Positions 51,845-64,000 of a stretch of DNA of 64,000 bases are shown here, one piece after another. Both the position numbers and the translations under genes were made by a program. Source of the DNA: a phage; NCBI GenBank assembly GCA_014685065.1, contig GCA_014685065.1_4092.2; one strand, 5' to 3'. The notes beneath the pieces are model-generated. The model was not told where the DNA came from and did no database searches. It worked only from the letters and a program-made list of their open reading frames with translations. Position 1 is the stretch's first letter. Each line of letters begins with the position of its first letter.

Positions 51845-52096
51845 ATGAAAGTACTGACAGAACTAGAAATGTATCATAGATTTAATAAGTACTCACATTT
51901 ACTGAAACCTATACATAGGATTAAGTGTTCTTGTTATGAGAAACAGGTTTTAATCTATGAGCACAAGTTCTTTGTATCATTAGGTACAGATCAACAAGAG
52001 TACTATTTGACGTTGTACTTGATTACATTAATAGATTTAATTCACTATAAAACCACAAAATCTAAACAAGCTAATAAAGAGAAATATGAAAACTAA
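51845..52096 (+). CDS. LGTNYQ-family small protein
   Basis: LGTDQQEYYL. Confidence 0.55.
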   Translation: MKVLTELEMYHRFNKYSHLLKPIHRIKCSCYEKQVLIYEHKFFVSLGTDQQEYYLTLYLITLIDLIHYKTTKSKQANKEKYEN

Positions 52097-52430
52097 TATA
52101 CAACTCAAGGTATATAAATCATTTGAACATACATATATCAAAAGTAGTCTATGTAGAGATGTAATGGATTACAAGGGTAAGCCATTCACAATTACCTATG
52201 ATTCTTATGTTAGTGATTTATATATATCATTTGTTAATTACGAAAATAAAATATACAAGCACGTTGATATTAAAGATTTAAGTACTTTATCTGAAGAGGA
52301 ATACTTTCAGGAATCATTAGTATGGGATTTAGAGTTTCCTATGCCATTAGTCCATAAAATGATAGTACTAATGAAAGAATCTAAACAGGAGCCTAATGGT
52401 GATTATGAAGAACACACAGTTGAGTATTAA
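52086..52430 (+). CDS. EEYFQ-family protein
   Basis: motif LSEEEYFQESLVWD. Confidence 0.6.
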   Translation: MKTNIQLKVYKSFEHTYIKSSLCRDVMDYKGKPFTITYDSYVSDLYISFVNYENKIYKHVDIKDLSTLSEEEYFQESLVWDLEFPMPLVHKMIVLMKESKQEPNGDYEEHTVEY

Positions 52431-52782
52431 GAGTTATACAAGCTCAAGTACTGTGACAATCGAAGTGAATTCTATTAATGCTGGTAATGCAGTAGATAAG
52501 TTCTTTATTGCTCAAGGGTACAGGAAAGATATTCATCAATATTGTTCAGTATATGGGGAGTACAATTCCACTGAAGATATAATTTATTGGTCAACACATC
52601 AAGATTATCTAACTAAAATTGGAGTTCCAGATGTTAGTACTTTATCTGAAGAAGAATACTTTCAGTACAGCTTAGTACATGATGTACCTATACCTTTAGG
52701 GTTAATCAAGGGTATACAGGAAGAGGTTCATAAGCTTAAATCCATGAGTTCAGGCACTTTCATTAGAACAGTGCAATACTAG
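52396..52782 (+). CDS. EEYFQ-family protein
   Basis: LSEEEYFQYSLVHD; SD AGGAG; start could be 52405. Confidence 0.55.
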   Translation: MVIMKNTQLSIKSYTSSSTVTIEVNSINAGNAVDKFFIAQGYRKDIHQYCSVYGEYNSTEDIIYWSTHQDYLTKIGVPDVSTLSEEEYFQYSLVHDVPIPLGLIKGIQEEVHKLKSMSSGTFIRTVQY

Positions 52783-52841
52783 CTTGATAGTACTTTTCAT
52801 TACTGATATAGTACACTAACGTTAATCATAGGGTAAAAATT

Positions 52842-53087
52842 ATGTTAAATTTTTTAAATTTCCTTATCGTCTTGTGTATTGTTCTTGGGATTGCACCATT
52901 TGTATTGTATTTCATGGATTCAGATGAAATGCAGAAGATGAATTGCACAAGGACAGGACAGAGTAGAGAAGAGACGATTCTTATGCCTGTTACGGTTATT
53001 GTTAACAACATGCCCATTACAAACATGGTCCCTACCCTAACGACAACGTACCAGTACTCTTGTGCTGACGGAGAGAGGTGGAGATGA
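52842..53087 (+). CDS. small membrane protein
   Basis: ORF track; hydrophobic N-terminus. Confidence 0.45.
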   Translation: MLNFLNFLIVLCIVLGIAPFVLYFMDSDEMQKMNCTRTGQSREETILMPVTVIVNNMPITNMVPTLTTTYQYSCADGERWR

Positions 53088-53404
53088 AATTTAATATAGC
53101 AAAAACATCGAGTATATGTATTTTTGGTTATGCAGAAGAGTTAGGTGATATTGACATTCTTTTGTACAAAAAGGATGGTGTTATGCATTTCAAGTACCAG
53201 GATGAAGAGGCAGACAATTATCCTTTACCTAATTTAGTACAAATGCAGGAAGATGAATTATTCCAGTACAGCTTAGTATACGACATTGATATTTGCACGA
53301 TGCCAGTACTAATTAATATTCAAAAAGTGATGCTCGATATGTATGATAAGCTAATACAAGGTATGTCAGGGAGAATCATTGAAATCGATATACAAGACAA
53401 TTAA
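53084..53404 (+). CDS. EEYFQ-family protein
   Basis: QEDELFQYSLVYD; ATG at 53084 (tracked ORF begins at GTG 53078). Confidence 0.55.
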   Translation: MKFNIAKTSSICIFGYAEELGDIDILLYKKDGVMHFKYQDEEADNYPLPNLVQMQEDELFQYSLVYDIDICTMPVLINIQKVMLDMYDKLIQGMSGRIIEIDIQDN

Positions 53405-53597
53405 TCAAGAATGGAAGACCCAAAAGTACAGGGAATTCAACAGGAATTTTACAAAAGATGCATTGAATTTAAAAACAACAGAGTTTGATATGTTTATTTT
53501 TCTTGGAACACGTTCACAAGAACAATTTGTTCATTATTATATAAATTCGTTGCGAACGGAGATAGTATGCAAAACACAGGGTATTATAAAAAGGTAA
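53379..53597 (+). CDS. LGTNYQ-family small protein (dispersed copy)
   Basis: LGTRSQEQFV. Confidence 0.5.
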   Translation: MKSIYKTINQEWKTQKYREFNRNFTKDALNLKTTEFDMFIFLGTRSQEQFVHYYINSLRTEIVCKTQGIIKR

Positions 53598-53833
53598 ACC
53601 AATATTTGTACGCTACAAAGTACAGGGATTTTTGTTTAAAGGGTGGTGATGAAGATTTTTCTTTGCGATTATCAGAATTTAATCTGTTATTTTATCTTGG
53701 TACAAAAGAACAAGAAGAAATGGCACAGAAATTTATCAAGCACCTTGTACAAAAAATTAATATGCAAATTTTGATGCTTAAGATACAGAATGAGATAAAT
53801 GAATATGAATCCAGAAATAGTTCAGGATCTTAA
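53567..53833 (+). CDS. LGTNYQ-family small protein (dispersed copy)
   Basis: LGTKEQEEM. Confidence 0.5.
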   Translation: MQNTGYYKKVNQYLYATKYRDFCLKGGDEDFSLRLSEFNLLFYLGTKEQEEMAQKFIKHLVQKINMQILMLKIQNEINEYESRNSSGS

Positions 53834-61995: not shown

Positions 61996-62004
61996 GATTA
62001 TAAA

Positions 62005-62496
62005 ATGACATTACAGAGTTCATTGGAAAAAGCAAAGAAGATTCATGAGTACATGAATATGGCAAAAGAAGGTTCAGTTTACGGTGTTTTCAAAGACACA
62101 AGTACTCAATATTATGTACCGGATAACCTCCTTAATAATGACGACTCAGATACAGAAACGTGCGTACTGGATACAGAAACGTGTGTACTGGATACCGACC
62201 CTAATGATTATGAATGCTTCATTAATATGCATAATGAGTACATGGTCTATATTAATGATACAGATACCATCTACAGTACTGATAGCGATTCCGATGACAT
62301 TATAATTCCGAGTGAAGTACTGGAAGGTCCGTGGGATAGTGAAGAGTATTACTTCCAACAAAGTACTGTATACGATGATGAAGTACTTGATGTTATTATA
62401 ATTATGTGGTACTTTAAAAGTATTGGTTCTGGGAACTTCTATTTCGATTACAAATACGTAAAGAAAACTGTAGATAACGGTATTAACAGGGGTTGA
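62005..62496 (+). CDS. EEYFQ-family protein (SEEYYFQQS subgroup); internal 21-bp tandem duplication
   Basis: GPWDSEEYYFQQSTVYD; DTETCVLDTETCVLD. Confidence 0.6.
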   Translation: MTLQSSLEKAKKIHEYMNMAKEGSVYGVFKDTSTQYYVPDNLLNNDDSDTETCVLDTETCVLDTDPNDYECFINMHNEYMVYINDTDTIYSTDSDSDDIIIPSEVLEGPWDSEEYYFQQSTVYDDEVLDVIIIMWYFKSIGSGNFYFDYKYVKKTVDNGINRG

Positions 62497-62497
62497 A

Positions 62498-62968
62498 ATG
62501 AGTTTAGAAAGAGCATTAGAGATTGCGAAGTTAATTGATTTATGCAGCAAAGAAATTGTAGCAAATTGTCTTAATGGATATCTATTCAAGGAAGGTAAAT
62601 CATATTGTCGAATGAGATACGATGACAGTAGTGAGTACATTCACATGTATGAAGAAAACTTAGATTCTTCTGAAACAACACTCAATGGGTGTGATGTTAA
62701 TTTGGAAGATAATTACATGTACTTCTGTCGTGATGCTGATATTTTAATACAAGATTCTGACATTATATCTGGTGCAGCAGAGAAACATCTTCCGTATTCA
62801 GTACTGGATAATGACTGGGGAAGTGAAGAGTACTACTTCCAGCAGAATACGATCTACGCAGAAGATGTACTTGACAAGCTTGTCATTCTGTGGTACTTTA
62901 ATAATACAGATTGTCCTAGCTTCTATTTGGACTTGGATCTACTACGAGTTATTAAAGAGGATATATGA
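62498..62968 (+). CDS. EEYFQ-family protein
   Basis: DWGSEEYYFQQNTIY. Confidence 0.6.
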   Translation: MSLERALEIAKLIDLCSKEIVANCLNGYLFKEGKSYCRMRYDDSSEYIHMYEENLDSSETTLNGCDVNLEDNYMYFCRDADILIQDSDIISGAAEKHLPYSVLDNDWGSEEYYFQQNTIYAEDVLDKLVILWYFNNTDCPSFYLDLDLLRVIKEDI

Positions 62969-63405
62969 GTTTAGCAAGTGCACTTGAACTAGCACACAGA
63001 ATACATCACTTCCACGATAACATAAAAAGTGGGTTCTATGGTGATAAAGTAAGTGCATTTGGTGATGAGTATTATCTATCAGGTATAAAGACATACTCTG
63101 ATGATATTTTACTTATGGGACAGGATAAAGACAATACTATACAGTACTCTTCATGTAGTCAATATACTAATTTTTTTGTATATATTCCAGGTACTAAGAT
63201 TACTTTTGACACATCAAATACACCTGTTGACTTCGGAGTACTTGATGGCCCGTGGGGTACTGAAGAGTATTACTTCCAACAGAGTCTCATTTTTAACCAA
63301 GAAATGCTTGATTCATTGGTTGTGTTGTGGTACTTTAAGGAATTGAATTTTGAACCATTCTTTCTTGACTGGGGATCATGTGAGTATTTAATTTCAGGGG
63401 AATAA
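62965..63405 (+). CDS. EEYFQ-family protein
   Basis: GPWGTEEYYFQQSLIF. Confidence 0.6.
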   Translation: MSLASALELAHRIHHFHDNIKSGFYGDKVSAFGDEYYLSGIKTYSDDILLMGQDKDNTIQYSSCSQYTNFFVYIPGTKITFDTSNTPVDFGVLDGPWGTEEYYFQQSLIFNQEMLDSLVVLWYFKELNFEPFFLDWGSCEYLISGE

Positions 63406-63407
63406 TA

Positions 63408-63896
63408 ATGTCATTACAAAGTGCATTGAAAGAAGCAAAGAAAATTCATGAGTTCATGATTATGGTACAGGAAGGTTCAGTACCAGGTGTATACAAAACA
63501 TCAGATACGGAATTCTTCGTTAAGGATAGAGATGATTATGACGATTCAGAGGTATGTGCAGAAACATTAGTACTGCACACTGATACTGGTGACAGTGATA
63601 ACTGTGAATATCATATGTACAATCAGTACATTAGTTATTGCCGTAATGAAGATATTACCATCTACAACACAGATAGTGATGCTGATGACACTATCATTCC
63701 TTATTCAGTACTGGAAGGACCGTGGGATAGTGAAGAATATTACTTCCAGAATAGTACGTTGTACAATGAAGAAGAATTAGATGTTATTGTAATTATGTGG
63801 TATTTCAAAAGTATTGACTCCAGTAGTTTCTATTTTGATTATGAATATGTAGAGAATACTGTAGGAGAAGGTAATGTCATTACAAAGTGCTCTTGA
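63408..63896 (+). CDS. EEYFQ-family protein
   Basis: GPWDSEEYYFQNSTLY. Confidence 0.6.
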   Translation: MSLQSALKEAKKIHEFMIMVQEGSVPGVYKTSDTEFFVKDRDDYDDSEVCAETLVLHTDTGDSDNCEYHMYNQYISYCRNEDITIYNTDSDADDTIIPYSVLEGPWDSEEYYFQNSTLYNEEELDVIVIMWYFKSIDSSSFYFDYEYVENTVGEGNVITKCS

Positions 63897-64000
63897 AAAA
63901 GCAAAAGAACTACATGGATACTTTGAAGATATAAAGGCCGGAAAGTTCAAAGAAGTTTACAAAGCCGAGAACGGTAACTACTACAAAGATGAAATGTATA
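63874..64000 (+). CDS. EEYFQ-family protein, 3'-truncated by window end
   Basis: N-terminus MSLQSALEKAKELH matches MSLxSALExAKxIH of the three preceding genes. Confidence 0.5.
   Translation, partial: MSLQSALEKAKELHGYFEDIKAGKFKEVYKAENGNYYKDEMY

What the first reader, a model, noticed from the sequence alone, without database searches (positions are those of the whole stretch)
52086..64000. Acidic paralog family (about 25 genes) sharing an E-E-[YF]-[FY]-Q-x-[SN]-[LT]-[VI] motif that resembles a TEV-type protease site
Genes of 105-210 aa share in their C-terminal half a block such as LSEEEYFQESLVWD, GPWDSEEYYFQQSTVYD, DTAELFQESLVFDKKY or QEEEYFQMQCIH, usually followed by a hydrophobic helix (..VIIIMWYFKS). 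Subgroups are recognisable. The motif core E-x-[YFL]-[FY]-Q-[QS]-[SN] is close to the potyviral NIa/TEV cleavage consensus E-N-L-Y-F-Q-S/G, which is most likely coincidence but is testable. The family fills the last 12 kb and continues past the window end.
Basis: partly seen in the sequence, partly recalled or inferred. Interest (0 to 1): 0.7.

Follow-up and report, generated by a model that had tools for sequence, protein, structure and literature searches.

The report
Jumbo-phage acidic paralog family, structural FQ helix
The last 12 kb of this jumbo coliphage window hold 20 complete genes, plus one cut by the window end, of a roughly 40-gene family of small acidic proteins of unknown function, and their shared "EEYFQxSLV" block is a helix inside a predicted compact fold rather than a TEV-type protease cleavage site.

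Summary
Twenty complete + strand genes between 52086 and 63896 carry F-Q-x-[SNAQE]-[LTFC]-[VIMLA], against 0.11 expected after shuffling. A 21st gene starts at 63874 and runs off the window. Two divergent basic members lie at 9425-10087 and 23710-24381.

The window comes from a 121Q/PBECO4-type jumbo coliphage (Asteriusvirus). In 121Q the array holds at least 40 members over 28 kb. Klebsiella phage RaK2, a different genus, has about 28-30, partly in the same order.

The members are acidic (pI 4.1-6.4), under purifying selection (pN/pS 0.28) and absent from the phAPEC6 virion proteome. They match no Pfam, NCBIfam, PADLOC or PDB family.

The TEV resemblance is coincidental. The full consensus E-x-x-Y-x-Q-[GS] occurs in 0 of 20 window members and 2 of 149 overall. 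The P3 Tyr is not conserved, and no NIa-like protease sequence turns up in 50,697 phage records.

Best reading: an old, tandemly expanded family of non-virion proteins that probably bind host factors. Their function is untested.

The parts
52086..52430 (+). Family member, 114 aa, short form; motif LSEEEYFQESLVWD (Phe codon at 52305)
   Evidence: (HMM E 1.3e-22)
52396..52782 (+). Family member, 128 aa, short form; LSEEEYFQYSLVHD (Phe at 52660); no ortholog in 121Q
53078..53404 (+). Family member, 108 aa, short form; MQEDELFQYSLVYD (Phe at 53261)
54549..55094 (+). Family member, 181 aa, long form; YDEAEVFQKSLITK (Phe at 54930); phrog_19795
55084..55401 (+). Family member, 105 aa, short form; LSEEEFFQMQFVLD (Phe at 55264)
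55382..55957 (+). Family member, 191 aa, long form; KSEEEFFQGSLLVP (Phe at 55784); phrog_19795
56264..56770 (+). Family member, 168 aa, long form; LTEEWWFQQNLVHD (Phe at 56603)
56758..56824 (+). Terminator-like hairpin (56758-56779) followed by a sigma-70-type promoter TTGACA-17-TATCAT with TG (56796-56824); promoter and T-tract identical in 121Q and nearly so in phAPEC6; implies host-RNAP transcription entering the array
   Evidence: consensus match plus conservation; function inferred
56853..57365 (+). Family member, 170 aa from GTG 56853 (AAGGAG 8 nt upstream; 121Q annotation starts here; ATG 56823 overlaps the -10 box); IGEDEYFQYSTVHR (Phe at 57144)
57362..57889 (+). Family member, 175 aa, long form; MQEEEYFQMQCIHS (Phe at 57662); phrog_33775
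57882..58505 (+). Family member, 207 aa, long form; VDAFMFQLSLVHD (Phe at 58326); phrog_31297
58507..58704 (+). Possible truncated member (about 65 aa, WFTDSFQLELLHLN near its N-terminus; annotated as gene 357 in 121Q); below HMM threshold
   Evidence: weak
58710..59225 (+). Family member, 171 aa, long form; DTEESYFQQSLIYS (Phe at 59079); also matches phrog_9317 over residues 12-165
59222..59563 (+). Family member, 113 aa; EDEAARFQYETAYD (Phe at 59408), most degenerate motif in the array
59574..60125 (+). Family member, 183 aa from ATG 59574 (121Q annotation); LSDESLFQYSTMYD (Phe at 59964)
60906..61283 (+). Family member, 125 aa from ATG 60906 (the ORF opens at GTG 60858); LDDAALFQEALVFD (Phe at 61122)
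61280..61639 (+). Family member, 119 aa, short form; MDTAELFQESLVFD (Phe at 61487); AlphaFold model 1
61636..61995 (+). Family member, 119 aa, short form; LDDGELFQAALVFD (Phe at 61846)
62005..62496 (+). Family member, 163 aa, long form, net charge -23; DSEEYYFQQSTVYD (Phe at 62353); AlphaFold model 2
62498..62968 (+). Family member, 156 aa, long form; GSEEYYFQQNTIYA (Phe at 62837)
62965..63405 (+). Family member, 146 aa, long form; GTEEYYFQQSLIFN (Phe at 63274)
63408..63896 (+). Family member, 162 aa, long form, net charge -26; DSEEYYFQNSTLYN (Phe at 63744)
63874..64000 (+). N-terminal 42 aa of the next member, cut by the window end; identical to 121Q gene 374 (150 aa, WNSEEYYFQNSTVYDD)
23710..24381 (+). 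Outlying divergent member, 223 aa, basic (net +8); LQEEELFMYSTVID (Gln replaced by Met)
   Evidence: (E 2e-6)
9425..10087 (+). Outlying divergent member, 220 aa, basic (net +9); SSDLMFQYSLIHKD
   Evidence: (E 0.01); weakest assignment

Best explanation
This is a lineage-specific, tandemly expanded family of small, acidic, non-virion proteins of Rak2-like jumbo phages. There are at least 40 copies in 121Q-type coliphages and about 28-30 in Klebsiella phage RaK2.

All members are built on one compact alpha/beta scaffold: a 5-6-stranded beta-meander, a short helix (the motif), a longer amphipathic helix and a returning beta-strand. The long forms add an N-terminal and a C-terminal helix.

The conserved block h-[S/T/D]-E-E-x-[Y/L]-F-Q-x-S-[L/T]-[V/I]-[aromatic]-[D/N/S/T] is the structural keystone of that scaffold. 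It is not a cleavage site.
- The S/T/D at -5 and the acidic residues at -4 to -2 form the N-cap and first turn of helix 1. With the hydrophobic residues at -6 and -1 they make a capping box plus hydrophobic staple.
- The invariant Phe and the L/T-V/I pair form the face that packs against the sheet.
- In the long-form model, the aromatic residue at +6, the D/N/S/T at +7 and the L/I at +11 start helix 2 in the same way.

Everything else in the proteins has diverged to 10-20% identity. The variable sheet surface and termini can therefore carry different binding specificities.

The genes are transcribed in long overlapping operons, at least partly from sigma-70-type promoters. The proteins most likely act in the infected cell as a repertoire of binders, decoys or inhibitors of host factors or defence systems.

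Shown here: the family, its extent, selection, predicted fold, helical state of the motif, absence from virions and absence of known-family matches. Inferred: the capping and staple roles, burial of Phe, early expression and the host-interaction function.
For: Family and extent.
- 20 of 20 genes carry the motif, against 0.11 expected. The HMM finds 40 members in 121Q and 28-34 in RaK2 depending on threshold.
- Reciprocal best hits between RaK2 and 121Q lie in the same order in the distal half of the array and align over most of their length. Examples are 187 aa at 28% identity (E 4e-14) and 166 aa at 31% (E 2e-11). Much of the expansion therefore predates the split of the two genera.

Real genes. 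Pooled pN/pS against 121Q is 0.28. Synonymous codons vary freely at the invariant residues.

Homology beyond the motif.
- hhalign between subgroup alignments gives 93-98% probability over 37-67 columns for eight short-form pairs. It gives 95.6% over 111 columns for the 62005 and 58710 groups, and 86.6% over 109 columns for the 56853 and 57362 groups.
- Independent PHROG profiles cross-match. phrog_12674 is hit by 9 of 22 members, and phrog_9317 matches the 58710 protein over residues 12-165.

Fold.
- Model 1: pLDDT 85.2, pTM 0.81, motif = helix 66-75.
- Model 2: pLDDT 89.4, pTM 0.85, motif = helix 113-119 in blocks of pLDDT 97, with Asp124 (+7) immediately before helix 125-139.
- Both models have the same order of elements.
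- Independently computed BFVD models of PBECO4, slurp01 and RaK2 proteins match model 1 at TM 0.54-0.88.

Residue statistics over 125 unique motifs.
- Phe 125 and Gln 123; the only replacement of Gln is Met, which is nearly isosteric.
- Position -5 is S/D/T/N in 103. Position -4 is E in 99. Position +7 is D/N/S/T in 94.
- Positions -6, -1 and +11 are mostly hydrophobic.
- Positions -2 and +2 are hypervariable.

Not structural virion proteins. The phAPEC6 orthologs gp439c-gp466c are absent from the 62-protein virion proteome (PMC7247149).

Promoter. A terminator plus a TTGACA-17-TATCAT promoter inside the array is conserved in three phages.
Against: - No experiment bears on function, timing or localisation. 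Early expression rests on consensus promoters, which are not enriched overall in the region (68 found against 86.5 expected).
- With the 13-residue block masked, leave-one-subgroup-out profiles no longer retrieve the left-out genes (E above 0.2), and most hhalign links collapse. The tie between short and long forms therefore rests largely on the motif, its position and the predicted topology.
- The AlphaFold alignments were anchored on the motif, which could bias both models towards one fold.
- I had no coordinates and could not measure burial of Phe or Gln.
- The near-absolute invariance of Gln is not fully explained by a capping or packing role. It could mark a shared functional site.
- pN/pS of 0.28 shows no sign of the diversifying selection expected for arms-race effectors, at least over the short 121Q-to-window distance.
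Confidence: 0.6

Rival explanations
1. The invariant E-E-x-x-F-Q helix is a shared functional docking element. All paralogs plug the same helix into one conserved partner, either a host protein or a phage machine, while their variable parts recruit different cargos. One candidate partner is the pair of ClpP-like proteases and the HslV-like peptidase encoded 25-30 kb downstream in 121Q. On this reading the family is a set of adaptors.
For: - Phe (125/125) and Gln (123/125) are far more conserved than any other core position in proteins that are otherwise 10-20% identical.
- Masking 13 residues removes nearly all detectable similarity between subgroups.
- The conserved acidic cluster next to an aromatic residue is typical of interaction hot-spots.
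- The motif is kept across two phage genera.
- 121Q encodes two ClpP-like proteases and an HslV-family peptidase downstream of the array.
Against: - Most conserved polar positions are accounted for by helix N-cap rules.
- The only tolerated Gln replacement is Met, which suggests packing rather than polar recognition.
- The monomer models place the helix confidently within the fold without any partner.
- No partner has been identified. The proximity to the protease genes is loose.
Confidence: 0.2
2. The block is a recognition and cleavage site for a Gln-specific (3C/NIa/TEV-like) protease, and the proteins are processed after the Gln.
For: - E-x-x-Y-x-Q is present in 9 of 20 window members and 50 of 149 family sequences.
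- A family profile searched against PDB sequences picks up only tagged eRF1 constructs at residues 14-47, probably through their tag's TEV site, at E 0.96.
Against: - The full consensus with G/S at P1' occurs in 0 of 20 and 2 of 149.
- The P3 Tyr is not conserved: Tyr 47, Leu 48, and in RaK2 also E, R, K, H and A.
- The site lies in a helix at pLDDT 90 or more, between a sheet and a strand that returns to it. Cleavage would not release separate domains (the last point is an inference).
- Gln is replaced by Met in some members.
- No NIa-like protease sequence turns up in any of 50,697 phage records at E up to 10, apart from one Microcystis phage at E = 4.
- The proteases I saw named in the 121Q (142.7-240 kb) and phAPEC6 records are ClpP-like, HslV-like and a prohead core scaffold/protease. 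From general knowledge, T4-type prohead proteases cleave after Glu.
Confidence: 0.02
3. The genes are unrelated proteins that independently acquired, or exchanged by recombination, a short linear motif or a conserved DNA element. On this reading there is no true family.
For: Sequence similarity between many subgroups is confined to about 13 residues.
Against: - Synonymous codons are randomised at the conserved residues, so no DNA element is being conserved.
- The motif sits at the same distance from the C-terminus in every member.
- The predicted order of secondary-structure elements is the same in short and long forms.
- Several subgroup pairs align over 60-111 columns.
- Independent BFVD models superpose on model 1.
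- The genes are tandem and co-oriented.
Confidence: 0.05
4. The proteins are acidic DNA mimics (Ocr/ArdA-like), or carry a beta-clamp-binding peptide (Q-L-[S/D]-L-F-like, here Q-x-S-L-V) that titrates the host sliding clamp.
For: - pI is 4.1-6.4 and net charge reaches -26.
- Q-x-S-L-[VI] shares Q, S and L with the clamp-binding consensus. That consensus is recalled from general knowledge and was not tested.
Against: - Position 2 of the pentapeptide is Leu in only 10 of 125 motifs, and position 5 is V/I, not Phe.
- The segment is folded, not a flexible tail.
- Forty copies of a clamp binder would be hard to rationalise.
Confidence: 0.05

Closest known systems
Potyviral NIa (TEV) protease recognition site E-N-L-Y-F-Q / S,G
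   Same: Nine of the 20 window members contain E-x-x-Y-x-Q, with Phe at P2 as in ENLYFQ.
   Different: The P1' residue is not G/S; the conserved Ser is at P2'. The P3 Tyr is present in only about 38% of motifs. The segment is helical inside a compact fold. No cognate protease was detectable.
Helix N-terminal capping box (S/T/D-x-x-E) with hydrophobic staple, a textbook helix-start signal (Harper and Rose 1993; Munoz, Blanco and Serrano 1995; cited from general knowledge)
   Same: The consensus h(-6)-[S/T/D](-5)-E-E-E(-2)-h(-1) fits N'-Ncap-N1-N2-N3-N4. The pattern aromatic(+6)-[D/N/S/T](+7)-x-x-x-[L/I](+11) fits again for the next helix. DSSP helix starts in model 2 (113 and 125) agree with this.
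   Different: A capping box does not explain the invariant Phe-Gln pair or the conserved Ser at +3. The assignment comes from sequence statistics and secondary structure, not from inspecting coordinates.
Lineage-specific paralog expansions in jumbo phages. [quoted passage not shown]
   Same: A large tandem expansion of a small protein confined to one jumbo-phage lineage. This family is presumably part of the RaK2 paralog pool mentioned there; the paper gives no details.
   Different: I found no paper that describes this family, its motif or its fold. The domain is not a recognisable one such as a zinc ribbon, and its copy number (at least 40) is among the highest.
PHROG families of unknown function (phrog_13866, 12674, 9317, 15629, 19795, 33775, 31297, 28680 and others)
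   Same: Every window member matches one of these families at E between 1e-40 and 1e-151, and there are cross-matches between families.
   Different: PHROGs splits the family into at least 15 separate groups, none annotated. The unifying motif and fold are not recorded.
Multigene families of large eukaryotic DNA viruses (ASFV MGF360/505, poxvirus Bcl-2-like and ankyrin families); a functional analogy from general knowledge
   Same: Tandem arrays of dozens of very divergent paralogs on one scaffold, lying towards a genome end and non-structural, with copy-number differences between strains. Here, 52396-52782 is absent from 121Q, and 121Q has an extra copy.
   Different: No sequence or fold relationship. 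A host-range or immune-evasion role is not shown here.

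Membership tests
TEV/NIa-type cleavage site | Consensus E-x-x-Y-x-Q followed by G or S at P1' | tested here: not met
   0 of 20 window members and 2 of 149 family sequences. P1' is Y/Q/E/L/N/M/A.
TEV/NIa-type cleavage site | P3 Tyr and P1 Gln conserved across substrates | tested here: not met
   Gln 123/125, but Tyr only 47/125 (Leu 48). RaK2 members have E, R, K, H, A, W and others at that position.
TEV/NIa-type cleavage site | Site lies in an accessible, extended or disordered segment | tested here: not met
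   Helix 66-75 (model 1) and helix 113-119 (model 2), in 10-residue blocks of mean pLDDT 84-97. This is a prediction; solvent accessibility was not computed.
TEV/NIa-type cleavage site | A cognate chymotrypsin-fold cysteine protease is encoded by the same genome | tested here: inconclusive
   tblastn of TEV NIa against 50,697 phage records gave no hit in these phages. The proteases named in the 121Q records I read (142.7-240 kb) and in phAPEC6 are ClpP-like, HslV-like and a prohead core scaffold/protease. A remote structural homolog among the roughly 500 hypothetical proteins was not excluded.
TEV/NIa-type cleavage site | Cleavage after Gln observed | not testable with these tools
   Needs N-terminomics or top-down mass spectrometry of infected cells.
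Tandem multigene family (lineage-specific expansion) of a jumbo phage | Many co-oriented, adjacent paralogs | tested here: met
   20 complete plus 1 partial in the window; 40 in 121Q over 28 kb, all on the + strand; nearest paralogs are adjacent (60906-61995 and 62005-64000).
Tandem multigene family (lineage-specific expansion) of a jumbo phage | Common descent shown beyond a short motif | tested here: inconclusive
   Met for many pairs: hhalign gives 93-98% over 37-111 columns, PHROG profiles cross-match, and BFVD models superpose. The links from the short forms to most long forms, and to the two outliers, rest mainly on the motif and on topology.
Tandem multigene family (lineage-specific expansion) of a jumbo phage | Genes are expressed, constrained coding sequences | tested here: met
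   pN/pS is 0.28 pooled over 19 ortholog pairs. Ribosome-binding sites and start/stop overlaps are present. Expression itself was not tested.
Tandem multigene family (lineage-specific expansion) of a jumbo phage | Restricted to one viral lineage | tested here: met
   Only 59 clusters (50% identity) among 1.84 billion representative proteins reach E of 1e-3 or better. Named hits are Escherichia, Salmonella and Klebsiella Rak2-like phages.
Any curated protein family (Pfam, NCBIfam, PADLOC) or solved structure | Significant profile or fold match | tested here: not met
Virion or ejected internal proteins | Detected in purified particles | tested here: not met
   phAPEC6 gp439c-gp466c are absent from Table 1 of PMC7247149.
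Beta-clamp-binding motif Q-L-[S/D]-L-F | Pentapeptide consensus in a flexible segment | tested here: not met
   Position 2 is Leu in 10 of 125 motifs, position 5 is V/I, and the segment is folded. The consensus was recalled from general knowledge.
Acidic DNA-mimic anti-restriction proteins (Ocr, ArdA) | Structural similarity to a DNA mimic and a DNA-like charge array | tested here: not met

The most novel reading that the evidence does not exclude
The invariant E-E-x-x-F-Q helix is a common plug. Through it, some 40 diversified phage proteins of a previously unseen fold dock onto one conserved host or phage machine. The family would then be a phage-encoded repertoire of adaptors or decoys, for example substrate adaptors for the phage's own ClpP/HslV-type proteases, or inhibitors aimed at many host defence systems. 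It has been maintained as ordered orthologs since before the Asteriusvirus-Alcyoneusvirus split.
Probability: 0.15. Interest if true: 0.8.

Novelty: new variant of a known kind. Interest (0 to 1): 0.45.

Why it matters
About 8% of a 350-kb coliphage genome (28 kb, at least 40 genes) is spent on one undescribed protein family, and a sister genus that infects Klebsiella keeps a comparable array partly in the same gene order. Such long-term retention of dozens of distinct paralogs argues that each has its own job. The predicted fold has no neighbour among solved structures.

Rak2-like jumbo phages are being developed for therapy against E. coli and Klebsiella, yet more than 80% of their genes are unannotated. 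Recognising that at least 15 separate PHROG groups of unknown function are one family with a single diagnostic motif gives a handle for annotation. It also gives a defined target for deletion, knock-down and interaction screens.

The TEV-site resemblance carries one practical caveat. Some members contain EEEYFQ or EEYYFQ and could in principle be nicked by TEV protease if expressed with TEV-cleavable tags and partly unfolded.

Tried and rejected
- Known-family searches (Pfam, NCBIfam, PADLOC, PHROGs, PDB sequences) found nothing informative.
- The word-indexed homolog search found only 30 close relatives. The exhaustive HMMER scan found only 59 clusters. Divergent ones come from unnamed metagenome contigs.
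- Literature: the 121Q/PBECO4/CBB/RaK2/phAPEC6/Sharanji/UE-S1 papers and two jumbo-phage reviews do not describe the family. I found no transcriptome for this genus.
- The motif-masked leave-one-subgroup-out HMM test failed to recover members. I report this as a limitation, not as evidence against homology, because profile-profile and structural comparisons do link the subgroups.
- A DNA-level element was rejected from codon usage.
- Rfam and tRNA scans of the window were empty.
- The sigma-70 promoter scan shows no overall enrichment. Only two intergenic sites look convincing.
- The beta-clamp motif, DNA-mimic and virion-protein ideas were considered and rejected (see the membership tests).
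- Locus L002, fetched by accession, was not visible to Python. The 121Q region beyond 190 kb was therefore only inspected by eye.

Full report
SOURCE AND OBSERVATION

The last 12 kb of the window are 95-96% identical to Escherichia jumbo phages of the 121Q/PBECO4/G17 group (genus Asteriusvirus, 348-386 kb). In those records every gene under the match is annotated 'hypothetical protein'.

Twenty complete + strand genes between 52086 and 63896 contain F-Q-x-[SNAQE]-[LTFC]-[VIMLA]. Shuffling the same proteins gives 0.11 such genes on average and never more than 2.

The block always lies 40-75 residues from the C-terminus. The proteins are 105-207 aa with net charge -2 to -26 and pI 4.1-6.4. The small ORFs just upstream have a median pI of 7.7.

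A 21st member starts at 63874 and is cut by the window end. A 65-aa ORF at about 58507 may be a truncated copy. About ten unrelated small ORFs are interspersed.

A profile built from the 88-residue core also picks up two basic outliers elsewhere in the window, at 23710-24381 (E 2e-6) and 9425-10087 (E 0.01).

EXTENT AND DISTRIBUTION

In 121Q the same profile finds 40 members in one co-oriented array covering record positions 160771-189186 (genes 342-408). By eye there are two or three more about 10 kb further on.

An exhaustive HMMER scan of 1.84 billion representative proteins found only 59 clusters at E of 1e-3 or better. The divergent ones come from unnamed metagenome contigs. tblastn hits are confined to Escherichia, Salmonella and Klebsiella Rak2-like phages.

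A 40-kb stretch of Klebsiella phage RaK2 (genus Alcyoneusvirus) contains 28-34 members with the same F-Q-x-S-[TL]-[VIL]-Y core. Reciprocal best hits between RaK2 and 121Q are collinear in the distal half of the arrays, and some align over nearly their full length (187 aa at E 4e-14; 166 aa at E 2e-11). Much of the expansion is therefore older than the two genera, and individual paralogs have been kept.

The proximal part, which is the part in this window, contains younger tandem duplicates (60906-61995; 62005-64000) and shows gain and loss. Gene 52396-52782 has no 121Q counterpart, and 121Q has an extra copy.

ARE THEY REAL GENES AND ONE FAMILY?

Orthologs in the window and 121Q give a pooled pN/pS of 0.28. 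Conservation acts on the protein: Phe is TTT 11 and TTC 11, Gln is CAG 11 and CAA 10, and Ser uses both codon families.

Between subgroups, identity is 10-20%. When the 13-residue block is masked, leave-one-subgroup-out profiles no longer find the omitted genes. Most of the detectable sequence signal therefore sits in the motif.

Several lines still support common descent:
- Profile-profile comparison of subgroup alignments gives 93-98% probability over 37-67 columns for eight short-form pairs.
- It gives 95.6% over 111 columns for the 62005 and 58710 groups, and 86.6% over 109 columns for the 56853 and 57362 groups.
- A few links survive masking, for example 83% over 60 columns.
- Independent PHROG profiles cross-match well outside the motif.

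The link between short and long forms rests mainly on the motif, its position and the predicted topology.

STRUCTURE

AlphaFold2 with family alignments gave confident models.
- The 119-aa short form has pLDDT 85.2 and pTM 0.81. It has five strands, helix 66-75, helix 84-100 and strand 109-113.
- The 163-aa long form has pLDDT 89.4 and pTM 0.85. It has helix 3-22, six strands, helix 113-119, helix 125-139, strand 145-148 and helix 149-162.

The order of elements is the same in both; the long form adds terminal helices.

Foldseek against BFVD returned only uncharacterised proteins of PBECO4, slurp01, 121Q and RaK2, and weakly of a Yersinia jumbo phage. Those models were computed independently and match model 1 at TM 0.54-0.88. 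No Pfam, NCBIfam, PADLOC or PDB-sequence match exists.

WHAT THE MOTIF IS

Over 125 unique motif windows, counting from the Phe as position 0:
- Phe is 125/125 and Gln is 123/125. The only replacement for Gln is Met.
- Position -5 is S/D/T/N in 103.
- Position -4 is Glu in 99, and -3 is Glu or Asp in 95.
- Position -6 is mostly L/M/I, and -1 is mostly L/Y/M/F.
- Position +3 is Ser in 96, +4 is L/T in 117, +5 is V/I/L in 119, and +6 is aromatic in 107.
- Position +7 is D/N/S/T in 94, and +11 is mostly L/I/V.
- Positions -2 and +2 vary freely.

Read against established helix-start rules, h-[S/T/D]-E-E-E-h is a capping box with a hydrophobic staple for helix 1. Aromatic-[D/N/S/T]-x-x-x-[L/I] is the same signal for helix 2. 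In model 2, DSSP starts the helices at 113 and 125, exactly one residue after Ser112 and Asp124.

Phe(0) and L/T(+4) share one helical face, and Gln(+1) and V/I(+5) share the adjacent one. The variable positions fall on the opposite face. This is the expected pattern for a helix packed on a sheet.

I could not compute burial because coordinates are not exposed, so the packing role of Phe and Gln is an inference. The Gln-to-Met substitution is consistent with a partly buried side chain. The strength of the Gln conservation remains incompletely explained.

THE TEV IDEA

E-x-x-Y-x-Q is present in 9 of 20 window members. The complete consensus with G/S at P1' is present in 0 of 20 and in 2 of 149 family sequences. 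The conserved Ser is at P2'. The P3 Tyr is not conserved in coliphage members (47 Tyr, 48 Leu) and is essentially free in RaK2.

The site is helical and embedded. A strand that follows the helices must return to the sheet, so cleavage would not separate domains (inference).

The proteases I saw named in the 121Q (142.7-240 kb) and phAPEC6 records are ClpP-like, HslV-like and a prohead core scaffold/protease.

A family profile searched against PDB sequences hit only tagged eRF1 constructs at residues 14-47, at E 0.96. That is probably the tag's TEV site. The resemblance is therefore real at the level of a few residues but statistically meaningless.

BIOLOGICAL SETTING AND LIKELY ROLE

The phAPEC6 orthologs are gp439c-gp466c. 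None is among the 62 virion proteins found by mass spectrometry (PMC7247149), so the proteins act inside the cell.

Most genes overlap at their start and stop codons. Two gaps carry good sigma-70-type promoters. One is TTGATA-17-TATAGT with TG at 52784-52812. The other is TTGACA-17-TATCAT with TG at 56796-56824. The second follows a terminator hairpin, and its promoter and T-tract are conserved in 121Q and phAPEC6. It also moves the start of the next gene to GTG 56853, behind AAGGAG.

In genomes that appear to start at a physical end, the array lies about 26-55 kb from that end. It sits downstream of a long run of tiny ORFs and upstream of nucleotide-metabolism and repair genes. This suggests, but does not show, early or middle expression by host RNA polymerase.

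Taken together, the evidence is a conserved scaffold, hypervariable surfaces, acidity, non-virion status, tandem expansion, strain-level gain and loss, and ancient retention of ordered orthologs. The most likely role is a repertoire of intracellular binders of host factors or defence systems. This is analogous in logic to the multigene families of large eukaryotic DNA viruses. That function is inferred, and pN/pS of 0.28 gives no sign of ongoing diversifying selection.

NOVELTY AND VERDICT

The sequences are in databases as hypothetical proteins, split over at least 15 PHROGs of unknown function. The RaK2 paper notes only that about 10% of its proteins are paralogs. I found no description of this family, its motif or its fold.

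It is a real and unusually large family with a possibly new fold. The eye-catching protease-site resemblance is coincidental, and the function is unknown. Interest is moderate at 0.45.

Noticed in passing
window 46600-52100 and 53405-53833, + strand: A second tandem family lies immediately upstream of, and twice inside, the FQ array. It comprises about 19-20 ORFs of 70-95 aa that share [LF]-G-T-N-[YF]-Q-E-x-[YF]-[VI], for example LGTNYQEEYIRKL and IGTNLQEEYVECY. Function unknown.
   Followed up: partly
window 10545-22131, - strand: About ten paralogous 245-433-aa proteins, of which the seven I scanned carry RCC1-like beta-propeller repeats (Pfam WD40_RLD, RCC1, RCC1_2). Proteins named 'DNA condensation protein' in phAPEC6 (gp003-gp010, gp549, gp551), which look like their counterparts, are virion-associated by mass spectrometry (PMC7247149); the orthology was not checked.
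   Followed up: partly
window 56758-56853: A terminator-like hairpin is followed by a strong extended -10 sigma-70 promoter; the promoter and T-tract are conserved in 121Q and phAPEC6. The -10 box overlaps ATG 56823, so the following gene most likely starts at GTG 56853 behind AAGGAG.
   Followed up: yes
window 60720-60857: A G7 run and a CCCCGCCCCC run about 110 nt apart, in otherwise AT-rich DNA, can pair around an internal hairpin (RNA MFE -29.9 kcal/mol for 160 nt). This lies just upstream of gene 60906. There is no Rfam match.
   Followed up: partly
window 62005-62496 (residues about 47-62): An internal perfect tandem duplication of seven codons (TETCVLD TETCVLD) sits in the acidic linker of this member. 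It looks like recent slippage or duplication.
   Followed up: no
window 52842-53087, + strand: An 81-aa ORF with a strongly hydrophobic N-terminal segment (MLNFLNFLIVLCIVLGIAPFVLYF) is interspersed in the array. It is probably a small membrane protein and is not a family member.
   Followed up: no
window 5767-6537, + strand: A 256-aa P-loop NTPase gives sub-threshold matches to AAA and novel STAND NTPase families.
   Followed up: no
L002 (121Q 196254-198400): Another small tandem family of about 90-105-aa proteins starts with ..IQFTYK.LYDLY.. and lies downstream of the FQ array in 121Q.
   Followed up: no
PDB search with profile A2: The only PDB sequences that approach the family profile (E 0.96) are recombinant eRF1 chains, matched at residues 14-47. 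These are probably their N-terminal tags containing a TEV site.
   Followed up: no
window 62146-62640, - strand: A 164-aa antisense ORF overlaps two family genes. It is low-complexity, lies antisense to constrained genes, and is most likely not a gene.
   Followed up: no
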